This document shows positions 21,001-24,000 of a stretch of 64,000 bases of DNA, in pieces (position 1 is the stretch's first letter; each line of letters starts with the position of its first letter). Origin of the DNA: Perna viridis (lineage: Eukaryota); contig CM074511.1 of NCBI GenBank assembly GCA_037379345.1, forward strand, positions 64,982,862 through 65,046,861, given 5' to 3'. The position numbers were made by a program.

Positions 21001-24000
21001 GTGAGGTTTTTAATTTTCAAATTATGACAAAAATACTGTGAAGATACTTTAGTTTGTGGAAATCAATATTGGAGGTTTTTCAAAATTTGTGAGATCTGGA
21101 TTTCAATAAACCATCTCAGTTTCTAATGGTCATTTCAAATATTATTGGGTGTTTGAACATGTGAGAAAATATATACATCACCATTAATCAGTTGTAAAAA
21201 ATGAGGTCATAATAGATAATAACATTGTGACATCACTACTCATAATAAAACGACTAACATGAAATTAATTTGGAATGCTTAAATTTTTAAGATTTCCAAT
21301 ATATTTGTAATAGTAGTCTTGAGGGGCCTGATGAGGGTCTCATCATGAATCACGATTCACAGAAAATAAATTTCCATGATCACGGATCATGAAAATATAA
21401 AAAGAGTATCCCCATTCAATTTCGATAATAGATATTCAGAAGCTGGTTGTTTGTATTGCAGATTGGTTCAATTAAGCTACAATCAAATACATTATTGGCT
21501 CATTACTTGTTTACGTGTTGAATTCTCCCAGGTTCTAAATTAAATAGCACCACTTCAACTCTTTACGCCAAGAAAGACAACTCAATGGAACTTTTTATTT
21601 GCGTAATGACAAAAAAAAATCACAAGAACAAAATATATGTCTCAATCACGAAGAATGAACACAAAACTCCAATGAAAATGATTCACAATGTTTTTATTAC
21701 AAATCACGAAAAATAAATCTATAGAAAAACAGGTTGCAACAGCGAAAAAGTGCTGATCACGAAGAACGAAAATAATCCATCAGGCCCCTCAGTCTTATGT
21801 GATTATTTAATGAAATCTTCCTTTCATCCAATATTTTTATTGCTTGAGTCATCAAAATCTCCATATTTAACAGCAACTGAATTCAAACCAGATCTACTGA
21901 AATAATCAACAGCCCTTACAAAATATGTGCCCTCAACAAAATCATCCTTTTCTAGTGTAGGTGTGAAATAAAATGAATTTGAAATGATATCATAGTCATT
22001 TATCCTTCTCAAAAGTCTTGTATATTTTTGTTGAAAAATAATCTCATATGTCAAGATGCATTTGGAAATAACATAATCATCTGACCATGTGATCAAGACC
22101 TTTCCTGTGGTCACATTATATAAGGTTAAATTAGTAACTATCCCAGGAGCAGCATCAGCCTTTTTACAGAAATGGAGTAGAACAACTTCTGGAGTCTGCA
22201 TTGTAAATGATTTGTTGTAGTAATGATTAAAGCTGATGATTGTATCATTAAAGATTTTTCTAGGTTCTTCAGCATTTCGCATTACTGAAAACTGTGAGAC
22301 TGAGGGGAAGTCAGGACTTCCAAAGTTCTTCCATGTTAGATAGGGGTTTGTTGTTTCATTATTATTAATTGAGTAGGCAATAACAACAACCACTGTTCCA
22401 TTTGGATTTGGAGGATCCAGACCCATTGAGAGATTAATAGAAATACTCTCCCCAATATTTGTATCCTTGCTACTGAAAATGAGAACAGATGCTTGCCATG
22501 AATCAGCTGATCCATACCCAAAGTAATAGTGAAGACTTGGGAGTACTCCAACAACATCAACATCAGATATAGGTGTAGTGCTACCATTACTCAATGTCTT
22601 AGTCAGTGTAGATGTGAGCTGATCCTCGCCTAACATACTCAAAAGATTCAACACTGAAAAGACTGGTTTTTTTATGAACTGCACATAGTTAGGTTCAGTA
22701 TCATTAATTTGGAATCTTGCTGTTAAAGTTCTCTCTGTAAACTGGTGTGGGAACCAGCTGAGAAAGGCATTATCATTGCTTAACAAAGAGTAGTTTGAAA
22801 TCACAGACTGTGAGTTTGAAACAATCACATTCTGATGTTCGCTAATCACCTTGGCAACCAGTGCAGCATAAGTGGCATCTGCCCTCCACAAAAAATTTCT
22901 GGACCATCCAACCATAGGATCAGCTTCATCATTATAAAATGGCTTGTCTTTCAGAGATGGAAATTTTTTGACAATTTGTTCAAATATTTTTATTTCTGCA
23001 TTCAAAATATTTTTAGACACCCCATTTCCTTTACAATGATATGAAAGAAAGTCTATTCTGACACCATGTTCACCAGTAAAATAGTTCTGACCATCTACAA
23101 CATGCTGAAGGAGACCATTTGAATAACTGTTGTGACCTAAATGGTCACAACCTGCAGCAGGACCACCAAGTTTCAATAAAGGACTAGCAGCATTTAAACC
23201 TTCTGAACAGGCATCATAGTAATTCAAAAAGCCCTGAACTGTCATTTTTACATTACCAAAGTCATGGCAATCAGGCTCATTCCAAGTCTCAAAATTCCAA
23301 GTTTTCACATTTTCAATACCATATTGTTCAATCAGGTGACTAGCCAAATCTTTTATTAAATCTCTCCATTGGTACACTTGTGTCTTATTTTCAAAATCAG
23401 TGAAGAATCCAGAGGGAGATCCCATTAGTTCAAATCCTGGTTTTAAGTCATACTGCTCAAGAAAAGTCAACAATTCAATTAGTTTTTTATAACTGTAAGT
23501 AAGGCCTCCACTATCATTCACTTCCACGGTCACCAAATCTAACAGCCAATGAATTCTAACCTGCTGAATGCCATCATGAGCTACTGAGCCAAGCAAAGCT
23601 AGATTTTGTTTCATGTCACTTCCATAGTCAAAATCATAGGCCCTTTCATGGGGCAAAGGGGGACAAAATCCAGTACTCCTCCAAAAATGCTTCAACTCAT
23701 GCTTTTTGTCCCAGGAATTAATTTGTAAATTATACTGCATTGTTCCTGCATTGGTAAGCTTTTTACTCCAAAACAAGAATGTCCAAATAATAAAACTGAT
23801 CATTTCACCTTTGAAATAAGCCATAAAATATAAACAACACCACCGCTGATAAGGTTTGAACACCTACATAACCTTTGTCCAATATCTAGTGGTATGTTGA
23901 CTTGATAGTTTGTCATATCATTGTCACATTCAAGGATAACATTACAGCTAGAGCTAAAACAACCTGTTCAATGTGCCATTACATAATTTATTCCTTTCCT

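What the first reader, a model, noticed from the sequence alone, without database searches (positions are those of the whole stretch)
21824..23863. Intact intronless alpha-L-iduronidase nested on the same strand inside a Rab-GAP intron
Seen: a ~2-kb ORF without introns, with both catalytic glutamates and a signal-like leader, sits between TBC exons 5 and 6 in the same orientation, while the TBC and RIMOC1 genes are split into short exons. Established: vertebrate IDUA is multi-exon, and nested genes are more often antisense to their host. Inference: a retroposed IDUA that stayed functional and may compete with the host as an alternative terminal exon or polyadenylation choice.
Basis: partly seen in the sequence, partly recalled or inferred. 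Interest (0 to 1): 0.7.

Follow-up and report, generated by a model that had tools for sequence, protein, structure and literature searches.

The report
Intronless iduronidase gene inside Rab-GAP intron
A complete gene for the lysosomal enzyme alpha-L-iduronidase, with an uninterrupted coding region, lies inside an intron of a Rab-regulator gene on the same strand; this looks like a known kind of gene relocation, not a new mechanism.

Summary
A 666-codon ORF on the minus strand (ATG 23824, stop 21824-21826) is a full-length alpha-L-iduronidase. It matches Pfam GH39 (E 5.5e-111) plus the IDUA C-terminal domain, and aligns end to end with solved human IDUA (E 1.7e-171). Both catalytic Glu motifs and a hydrophobic leader are present.

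It lies in a 7,006-nt intron of a TBC1D2-like gene (PH domain, coiled coil, TBC domain) on the same strand. It sits between the fifth and sixth detectable coding exons, whose splice phases fit each other.

The retroposition reading is plausible but not shown. I found no poly(A) remnant and no flanking target-site duplication. No eukaryotic genome collection was available, so paralogues, synteny and intron status in relatives stay unchecked. GH39 is single-copy in 7 of 7 mollusc genomes surveyed in print, so this is more likely the organism's only IDUA than a spare copy.

Same-strand nesting is only slightly rarer than antisense nesting in mouse and human. Competition with the host for polyadenylation is untested. 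Verdict: real, tidy, an ordinary member of a known kind (nested gene, probable retrogene replacement). Interest is low to moderate.

The parts
21824..23824 (-). Alpha-L-iduronidase (GH39) coding sequence, 666 codons plus stop, single coding exon
   Evidence: ORF. Pfam GH39 plus IDUA C-terminal domain. Colinear alignment to human IDUA 4mj2_A at E 1.7e-171. Catalytic motifs and 12 N-X-S/T sequons. Four CpG in 2001 nt (o/e 0.062).
23825..23863 (-). Open-frame leader upstream of the first ATG, back to the in-frame TAG at 23864-23866; presumably 5' UTR
   Evidence: Human residue 38 aligns with query residue 39, so the ATG at 23824 gives an N-terminus of the expected length.
25101..25228 (-). Host (TBC1D2-like) coding exon 5, 128 nt, coiled-coil-like. 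Acceptor tttcag|CTT; donor AAG|gtgaaa leaves 2 bases of a codon.
   Evidence: Sequence; donor score.
18095..25100 (-). Host intron of 7,006 nt that contains IDUA; the longest of the 14 modelled host introns
   Evidence: Boundaries.
17963..18094 (-). Host coding exon 6, 132 nt. A strong acceptor (16 of 20 pyrimidines, then ag|G) starts on the third base of a codon, so it is phase-compatible with exon 5.
7174..38280 (-). Host gene, TBC1D2-like. Modelled coding exons are bounded approximately at 38241-37832 (PH domain), 33500-33368, 28900-28648, 26293-26061, 25228-25101, 18094-17963, 16659-16422, 15481-15375, 13645-13519, 12410-12265, 11398-11290, 10147-10016, 8746-8609, 8200-8024 and 7347/7314 onward. 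The 3' end was not defined.
   Evidence: PH domain in Pfam; its best solved match is the PH domain of TBC1 domain family member 2, 2dhk (E 8.5e-9). RabGAP-TBC profile positions 49-91, 90-137 and 139-202 fall on three successive exons. TBC structures. GT-AG sites and phases; the small exon is visible.
21594..21811 (-). Same-strand poly(A)-signal hexamers after the stop: ATTAAA 21811-21806, AATAAA 21698-21693, AATAAA 21599-21594. The last two lie inside the MITE-like insert.
21320..21791 (.). MITE-like insert of 472 nt with perfect 14-nt terminal inverted repeats, starting 33 nt after the stop. GTCT flanks it on both sides. It holds 11 CpG.
   Evidence: Inverted repeat I8. The motif occurs only at these two places against 0.01 expected. 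Flanks and CpG count.
24012..24369 (.). 52-nt minisatellite (6.9 copies, 90% matches) beginning 188 nt upstream of the ATG

Best explanation
This is the organism's working alpha-L-iduronidase gene, which encodes a secreted, lysosome-bound GH39 retaining glycosidase. Its whole coding region is one exon. It lies as a nested gene, on the same strand, in the longest intron of a TBC1D2-like Rab-GAP gene.

Shown here: the protein is complete and carries the catalytic and substrate-site residues. The flanking exons on both sides belong to one PH/coiled-coil/TBC gene, and their splice phases match.

Inferred:
(a) The intronless state is derived. It arose through a reverse-transcribed mRNA, either by retroposition into this intron followed by loss of the multi-exon parent ('retrogene replacement'), or by cDNA-mediated loss of introns.
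(b) The event is old, because poly(A) and target-site marks are gone and a MITE has since landed in the 3' flank.
(c) The gene is transcribed from its own start site in the roughly 1.3 kb between host exon 5 and the ATG, and ends at one of the hexamers 13-225 nt after the stop.
(d) Host transcripts normally read through and splice the whole unit out with the intron.
For: Identity and integrity:
- Pfam GH39 at E 5.5e-111 plus the IDUA C-terminal domain.
- 575 bits against human IDUA over query 39-654, in one colinear stretch.
- My count of the match line gives 52 of 103 and 62 of 103 identities in the first two blocks. Fly IDUA is reported as 30% identical to human (passage in PMC8750945).
- E183 and E300 sit in the N-E-P and D-E-A-D motifs. 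H92, K265, D351, R365 and the N374-D-T sequon align with human H91, K264, D349, R363 and N372 (read off; the roles of these residues are recalled).
- P of about 1e-21 for the open frame by chance.

Nesting:
- The PH exon upstream best matches the solved PH domain of TBC1D2, and TBC-domain exons lie downstream.
- The exon 5 donor leaves 2 bases and the exon 6 acceptor needs 2.
- A GT-AG chain with matching phases can be drawn through all 14 junctions. I chose the sites to fit, so this is not an independent test.
- CpG depletion is continuous from about 6 kb to 38 kb, with no CpG-rich island between exons 5 and 6. The switch to o/e of about 1.2 falls at host exon 1.

Only copy rather than spare copy:
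- GH39 counts are 1 in each of 7 of 7 mollusc genomes (Table 1 of PMC7560691).

Derived state:
- Human IDUA has 14 exons.

Animal origin:
- The next best solved relative outside IDUA scores 198.6 bits.
- The scan of 185,579 bacterial and archaeal genomes confirmed 0 of 78 pattern matches.
- Four CpG in 2 kb fits long germline methylation, as described for housekeeping genes in oyster (passages of PMC4378273).
Against: - No retroposition hallmark was found. There is no A-rich tract after any of the poly(A) hexamers and no bracketing direct repeat.
- Whether a multi-exon IDUA exists elsewhere in this genome is unknown. So is whether relatives also have an intronless IDUA, or have one in this intron.
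- The taxon of the window was not determined, so applying the mollusc copy counts is an assumption.
- There is no CpG-rich, promoter-like island upstream of the ATG. The stretch 23825-25100 holds 9 CpG at o/e 0.275. An independent start site is therefore inferred, not seen.
- A 5' UTR intron cannot be excluded.
- CpG depletion would also be inherited from a methylated parent mRNA, so it does not date the event.
- There are no expression data.
Confidence: 0.6

Rival explanations
1. In-situ history without relocation. IDUA was intron-poor early in this lineage, or lost its introns stepwise or by gene conversion with a cDNA at its old locus. It became nested because the TBC1D2-like gene came to span it, or because the arrangement is old and shared by many relatives.
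For: No poly(A) remnant or target-site duplication was found. The coding sequence is as CpG-depleted as, or more than, the host gene body, so it looks long resident in a methylated, transcribed region. Internalisation of a neighbouring gene by host extension is listed among the origins of nested pairs (passage in PMC11694760).
Against: Complete loss of every coding intron (13 in the human gene) at once is the classic signature of a reverse-transcribed intermediate. The host's PH, coiled-coil and TBC order is the standard TBC1D2 architecture (recalled), so the host does not look like a recent fusion across a gene.
Confidence: 0.2
2. A young processed retrocopy, either a duplicate or a not-yet-decayed pseudogene, of a multi-exon IDUA that still sits elsewhere in this genome.
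For: The coding region is intronless and lies inside an intron of an unrelated gene. Retrotransposon machinery exists in this genome: a LINE-like RT/RNase H remnant lies 6 kb away.
Against: Young retrocopies keep their poly(A) tail and target-site duplications, and none is present. A MITE-like element has since inserted 33 nt after the stop. The frame is fully open with every checked functional residue kept. GH39 is single-copy in 7 of 7 mollusc genomes surveyed.
Confidence: 0.1
3. Not nested. The PH/coiled-coil exons upstream and the coiled-coil/TBC exons downstream are two separate genes, and IDUA is simply intergenic.
For: No transcript evidence joins exons 5 and 6. Phase compatibility alone has about a 1 in 3 chance.
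Against: The upstream PH exon best matches the PH domain of TBC1D2 itself. Exon 6 has a strong acceptor (16 of 20 pyrimidines) and starts mid-codon. No CpG-rich promoter-like island lies between the two halves, whereas one marks host exon 1.
Confidence: 0.05
4. IDUA has no promoter of its own. It is produced from host-gene transcription, as an alternative 3' terminal exon or by intronic polyadenylation of TBC1D2 transcripts.
For: It is on the same strand as the host. No CpG-rich island lies upstream. Poly(A) hexamers sit just after the stop. Nested genes can force exonisation and premature polyadenylation of hosts (abstract and passages of PMC3192792).
Against: Host exon 5 ends in phase 2. The candidate acceptors between the in-frame TAG and the ATG give exon starts on codon boundaries (23863, 23845), so no in-frame fusion forms there. 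In a chimeric mRNA the IDUA ATG would lie more than 1 kb from the cap, behind the host ORF, and the signal peptide would not be N-terminal. Acceptor-like sites upstream are weak, with at most 55% pyrimidines between 24010 and the ATG.
Confidence: 0.05
5. Bacterial contaminant, or a recent horizontal transfer of a bacterial GH39.
For: It is intronless, and GH39 is mainly a bacterial family (beta-xylosidases appear).
Against: It scores 575 bits to human IDUA, against 198.6 bits for the best non-IDUA structure and 65 bits or fewer for the beta-xylosidases. It has the animal IDUA C-terminal domain. None of the 78 pattern matches in bacterial and archaeal genomes was confirmed. Its CpG o/e of 0.06 and GC3 of 0.30 match the host genome. 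It is embedded between spliced animal exons.
Confidence: 0.01

Closest known systems
Human/vertebrate IDUA (lysosomal alpha-L-iduronidase, GH39; solved as 4mj2, 4kgj, 3w81)
   Same: It has the same three-part protein: a GH39 TIM-barrel region plus the IDUA C-terminal domain. It is colinear from residue 39 to 654. Both catalytic Glu motifs are kept, and so is the sequon aligned with human N372.
   Different: The gene structure differs: one coding exon here against 14 exons in human. The genomic setting also differs: here the gene sits inside a TBC1D2-like intron. From recall, not checked here, human IDUA lies at 4p16.3 and itself hosts SLC26A1 in an intron.
Retrogene replacement / 'orphan' retrogenes (e.g. 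amphioxus SYCP1, PMC5803294)
   Same: A single-coding-exon gene stands where most animals have a multi-exon gene, in an unrelated locus, and probably as the only copy (abstract and passages; copy number by analogy).
   Different: Loss of the parent and the change of locus are not demonstrated here. No poly(A) or target-site marks survive.
Host/nested gene pairs in animal genomes (PMC11694760; PMC3192792)
   Same: The gene is wholly contained in a long intron of a longer host. Same-orientation pairs are common, and interference by premature polyadenylation or exonisation is documented.
   Different: Those surveys cover mouse and human. Nothing here measures interference.
TBC1D2/Armus (Rab7 GAP), for the host gene
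   Same: An N-terminal PH domain best matches the solved TBC1D2 PH domain. Coiled-coil-like middle exons and a C-terminal TBC domain follow.
   Different: Orthology to TBC1D2A or TBC1D2B was not tested with a full-length protein, because the joined model was deliberately not built or searched. Rab7 specificity is taken from the abstract of PMC3898768, not from this sequence.

Membership tests
GH39 alpha-L-iduronidase (IDUA) | GH39 catalytic domain above Pfam's curated cut-off | tested here: met
   PF01229 scores 372.1 bits against a cut-off of 26, over residues 34-523 and profile 4-459 of 472.
GH39 alpha-L-iduronidase (IDUA) | IDUA-specific C-terminal domain | tested here: met
   PF21200 scores 72.6 bits against a cut-off of 27, over residues 564-654 and profile 1-87 of 89.
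GH39 alpha-L-iduronidase (IDUA) | Acid/base Glu (human E182, N-E-P) and nucleophile Glu (human E299, D-E-A-D) | tested here: met
   E183 and E300 align with them. The roles of the human residues are recalled.
GH39 alpha-L-iduronidase (IDUA) | Full-length colinearity with a solved IDUA | tested here: met
   Query 39-654 aligns with 4mj2_A residues 38-638 of 653 in one stretch, E 1.7e-171.
GH39 alpha-L-iduronidase (IDUA) | Cleavable signal peptide for entry into the secretory/lysosomal route | tested here: inconclusive
   A hydrophobic core lies at residues 8-18 with mean hydropathy 2.29, and there are 12 N-X-S/T sequons. No signal-peptide predictor was available.
GH39 alpha-L-iduronidase (IDUA) | Hydrolysis of terminal alpha-L-iduronate | not testable with these tools
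   This needs an enzyme assay, for example with 4MU-iduronide as used for the fly enzyme (PMC8750945).
Processed retrogene / retrogene replacement | Lacks the introns of its orthologues | tested here: met
   One coding exon against 14 exons in human. The intron state in closer relatives is unknown.
Processed retrogene / retrogene replacement | Poly(A) tract at the 3' end | tested here: not met
   No A-run follows any hexamer in the 1.1 kb after the stop.
Processed retrogene / retrogene replacement | Flanking target-site duplications | tested here: not met
   No bracketing direct repeat was found. The only exact 12-mer pair (20595 and 24644) is not beside an A-tract.
Processed retrogene / retrogene replacement | Parent locus elsewhere, or lost | not testable with these tools
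Nested (intronic) gene, same strand | Exons of one host gene on both sides, same strand, joinable in frame | tested here: met
Nested (intronic) gene, same strand | Host transcript that spans and splices over the nested gene | not testable with these tools
   No RNA data.
TBC1D2-like RabGAP (host) | N-terminal PH domain plus C-terminal TBC domain | tested here: met
   PH_11 scores 35.3 bits and 2dhk matches at E 8.5e-9. PF00566 matches three exons at 41.8, 35.4 and 70.8 bits.
TBC1D2-like RabGAP (host) | Central coiled coil | tested here: inconclusive
   Only sub-threshold coiled-coil-type Pfam matches were found on exons 5-7.

The most novel reading that the evidence does not exclude
IDUA reached this intron by retroposition and replaced its multi-exon parent. 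It now has no promoter island of its own and draws on the host's transcription or chromatin. If so, a lysosomal hydrolase is expressed together with a Rab7 GAP (TBC1D2-like). That host lies about 12 kb from a gene for a Rab7A-interacting MON1-CCZ1 subunit (RIMOC1). The result would be a small neighbourhood of endolysosomal genes kept together by selection.
Probability: 0.07. Interest if true: 0.55.

Novelty: new member of a known kind. Interest (0 to 1): 0.25.

Why it matters
If retrogene replacement is confirmed, this adds a clean invertebrate case. An essential lysosomal enzyme gene would have swapped a multi-exon locus for a single exon inside another gene. That gives a natural system for asking how a same-strand nested gene and its host avoid premature polyadenylation. 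In practice it matters for annotation. Gene predictors may fuse the ORF with the host, split the host in two, or drop the ORF as a pseudogene. It does not reveal a new mechanism.

Tried and rejected
- Bacterial origin. One scan of bacterial and archaeal genomes with the whole protein confirmed 0 of 78 pattern matches. This mode finds close relatives only.
- Retroposition marks. I read 1.1 kb downstream and ran direct and inverted repeat searches over 20500-25100. Nothing brackets the gene.
- In-frame host-IDUA fusion. I listed 17 AG sites between 24010 and 23700. None before the ATG has both a pyrimidine tract above 55% and the frame offset needed for a fusion with exon 5.
- Shared lysosomal (CLEAR-type) promoter motif. 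TCACGTGA occurs once, at 59071-59078 near the 5' end of RIMOC1, and 37 of 100 shuffles do as well. The 10-mer with one mismatch gives 0 matches. No support.
- RNA genes in the intron. Rfam at gathering threshold gave 0 matches and there are 0 tRNAs.
- Literature. 'iduronidase' plus 'intronless' found 3 papers, none on gene structure in invertebrates. 'alpha-L-iduronidase' plus 'mollusc' found 4 papers. 'IDUA' plus 'invertebrate', 'ortholog' and 'exon' found 1 irrelevant paper. The fly paper gives no exon data: 0 occurrences of exon or intron.
- The 613-codon ORF at 45862-47700 (+). Pfam found nothing above cut-off. The protein atlas gave a best score of 0.85, which is uninformative.
- Not attempted: structure prediction of IDUA, because the sequence match to solved IDUA is already decisive and no alignment could be built; and complex prediction, because no binding claim is made.
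Full report
**What is there.** The window has no N. Its base composition is AT-rich (GC 0.28-0.40) with mosaic CpG depletion. Together with its gene content, this is what one expects of an invertebrate animal, not of human DNA.

On the minus strand a frame is open from 23863 to 21827 (679 codons). The first ATG is at 23824 and TGA at 21826-21824, giving 666 residues. Stop trinucleotides are 6.9% of positions on that strand, so such a frame has a chance probability of about 1e-21.

**The protein.** Pfam places GH39 on residues 34-523 (E 5.5e-111) and the alpha-L-iduronidase C-terminal domain on 564-654 (E 3.4e-20).

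Against all solved structures, the four best of 15 matched sequences are human alpha-L-iduronidase. The score is 575 bits (E 1.7e-171), with query 39-654 aligned to chain 38-638 of 653 in a single stretch. Next come a GH39 'glycosyl hydrolase' at 198.6 bits and bacterial beta-xylosidases at 65 bits or fewer.

From that alignment:
- N182-E183-P184 and D299-E300-A301-D302 align with the human acid/base E182 and nucleophile E299.
- H92, K265, D351 and R365 align with human H91, K264, D349 and R363.
- The sequon N374-D-T aligns with human N372-N-T.

The functional roles of these human residues are recalled from the structure papers, not checked here.

The N-terminus has an 11-residue hydrophobic core and the protein has 12 N-X-S/T sequons. 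This is consistent with a secreted, lysosomal glycoprotein, but no signal-peptide predictor was available.

Because human residue 38 pairs with query residue 39, the ATG at 23824 gives a leader of the expected length. No upstream coding exon is needed. The coding region is therefore complete and uninterrupted. A 5' UTR intron cannot be excluded.

**The host gene.** I searched the candidate exons one at a time. I did not build or search a joined coding sequence or protein, so full-length orthology of the host is not tested.

On the minus strand, upstream of IDUA:
- The ORF at 37831-38280 carries a PH domain (PH_11, 35.3 bits).
- Its best solved match of 14 is the PH domain of 'TBC1 domain family member 2' (2dhk, E 8.5e-9).

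Downstream of IDUA:
- Three successive ORFs carry RabGAP-TBC profile positions 49-91, 90-137 and 139-202.
- The last of these matches TBC structures (11 sequences, best E 2.2e-12).

Between them lie coiled-coil-like exons, which gave only sub-threshold Pfam matches.

Reading the sequence gives these junctions:
- Exon 5 spans 25228-25101. Its acceptor is tttcag and its donor AAG|gtgaaa. It ends with two bases of a codon.
- Exon 6 starts at 18094, behind 16 pyrimidines in 20 and an AG. It starts on the third base of a codon.

The two exons therefore join in frame.

A GT-AG chain with matching phases runs through all 14 junctions of 15 exons (and the small exon seen). I picked sites so that they fit, so this is consistency, not proof.

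IDUA lies in the 7,006-nt intron 25100-18095. It starts 1,276 nt after the exon 5 donor and ends about 3.7 kb before the exon 6 acceptor, on the same strand as the host.

RIMOC1 exons (Pfam RIMC1, 33.5-57.4 bits) lie on the same strand at 57950-58108, 56563-56760 and 50081-50308.

**Methylation footprint.** CpG observed/expected values are as follows:

| Region | CpG o/e |
|---|---|
| Across the TBC1D2-like gene body, about 6-38 kb (the 10-12 kb bin is 0.62) | 0.07-0.35 |
| 38-48 kb, starting within host exon 1 | 0.8-1.25 |
| RIMOC1 gene body | low again |
| IDUA coding sequence (4 CpG in 2,001 nt) | 0.062 |
| Whole window | 0.36 |

This is the mosaic gene-body pattern described for oyster, where methylation marks moderately expressed housekeeping genes and promoters generally lack it (passages of PMC4378273).

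Two things follow. First, no CpG-rich island separates host exons 5 and 6, which fits one transcription unit. Second, IDUA has no CpG-rich island of its own: 9 CpG lie in 23825-25100. The depletion shows long exposure of this sequence, or of its parent mRNA's gene, to germline methylation. It cannot date a relocation.

**The flanks.**
- Upstream, a 52-nt minisatellite (6.9 copies) occupies 24012-24369.
- Downstream, ATTAAA lies 13 nt after the stop and AATAAA at 126 and 225 nt.
- Thirty-three nucleotides after the stop begins a 472-nt MITE-like insert (21320-21791). It has perfect 14-nt terminal inverted repeats. That terminal motif occurs only at these two places in the window, against 0.01 expected. 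It is flanked by GTCT and holds 11 CpG, so it looks younger than its surroundings.
- The two AATAAA hexamers lie inside this insert.
- There is no A-run after any hexamer. No direct repeat brackets the gene.

**Origin.** Human IDUA has 14 exons (passage in PMC6805319), whereas here there is one coding exon. Loss of all coding introns at once points to a reverse-transcribed intermediate, but the diagnostic marks of retroposition are absent. So the event is either old or was not a classical retroposition.

A survey of glycoside hydrolases lists exactly one GH39 gene in each of seven mollusc genomes, expressed in gill, haemolymph, gonad or hepatopancreas (Table 1 of PMC7560691). If this organism is similar, the ORF is its only IDUA. 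The closest named phenomenon would then be 'retrogene replacement', or an 'orphan' retrogene, as described for amphioxus SYCP1 (abstract and passages of PMC5803294).

I could not test any of the following: a second locus in this genome, the arrangement in relatives, or dN/dS. The open genome collection holds only bacteria and archaea, and it gave 0 confirmed relatives among 78 pattern matches. The supplements of PMC7560691 were also closed.

**How unusual is it?** In mouse and human, more than a tenth of genes take part in host/nested pairs. Nested genes sit preferentially in long introns, and the orientation bias towards antisense is described as slight (passages of PMC11694760). Same-strand nesting is therefore not remarkable in itself.

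Interference by nested genes through exonisation and premature polyadenylation is documented in human cells (PMC3192792). An in-frame host-IDUA fusion is not available at the acceptor-like sites just upstream of the ATG.

I found no paper describing an intronless IDUA.

**A coincidence worth recording.** The host resembles TBC1D2/Armus, which inhibits Rab7 (abstract of PMC3898768 in the listing). The neighbour is a 'RAB7A-interacting MON1-CCZ1 complex subunit' by Pfam name. The nested gene encodes a lysosomal hydrolase.

A test for a shared CLEAR-type promoter motif gave nothing above chance. I treat the theme as post hoc, and use it only for the boldest reading.

**Verdict.** This is a real, intact, probably functional IDUA gene. 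It is a new member of known kinds: a nested gene and a probable old retrogene replacement. Interest is 0.25.

Noticed in passing
window 21320-21791: A MITE-like 472-nt element with perfect 14-nt terminal inverted repeats, flanked by GTCT. It inserted 33 nt after the IDUA stop and carries two AATAAA hexamers and 11 CpG. It may now supply the gene's poly(A) signal.
   Followed up: partly
window 9678-10046 and 8890-9185: 72-nt tandem repeats start at the 3' end of the host's TBC exon that ends in ...GYCQ (the Gln-finger region). Copies at 10016, 9944 and 9872 each repeat a perfect 9-of-9 donor consensus, and the frame stays open through them. Alternative donors could therefore add 24-residue units.
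   Followed up: partly
window 38001-48000: A sharp CpG domain boundary. Observed/expected rises from about 0.1-0.2 to 0.8-1.25 starting within host exon 1 and stays high for 10 kb, falling again over RIMOC1. This looks like an unmethylated domain between two methylated gene bodies.
   Followed up: partly
window 45862-47700 (+): A 613-codon open frame with CpG o/e 0.96, inside the CpG-rich domain. It has no Pfam family above cut-off and no informative atlas neighbour (best score 0.85). It may be a gene or a mobile-element ORF of unknown kind.
   Followed up: partly
window 29368-32504 (-): A decayed non-LTR retrotransposon in the host intron between exons 2 and 3. It has reverse transcriptase (48.3 bits) and RNase H (27.6 bits) split over several frames. 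An RNase H tail fragment also lies at 1538-1696 (+) at 24 bits, below the cut-off.
   Followed up: partly
window 51577-55533: A 4-kb satellite of 30-nt units (about 122 copies, with a 145-nt higher-order period) in a RIMOC1 intron. It shows strong strand asymmetry (GC skew -0.54 to -0.58) and 0-2 CpG per 2 kb.
   Followed up: no
window 19650-19991 (-) and 61820-62062 (+): Open frames of 114 and 81 codons with no Pfam match. From recall they resemble a repeated mobile-element protein family. The first lies in the same host intron as IDUA and is CpG-rich relative to its surroundings.
   Followed up: no
window 17147-17887: A 25/52-nt minisatellite (about 28 copies) lies in the host intron just downstream of exon 6.
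   Followed up: no
window 7174-38280, 21824-23824, 50081-58108: The three recognisable genes share an endolysosomal theme: a TBC1D2-like Rab7 GAP, IDUA, and the RIMOC1 Rab7A-interacting subunit. The single TCACGTGA at 59071-59078, just upstream of a possible first RIMOC1 exon, is no more than chance gives.
   Followed up: partly
window 61431-61574 and 63829-63999 (+): Lys/Pro/Ala-rich open frames. The second ends in an IQ-like 'IQTKFRQFRAKK' stretch and runs off the window. Pfam found nothing for the second, and the first was not searched.
   Followed up: no
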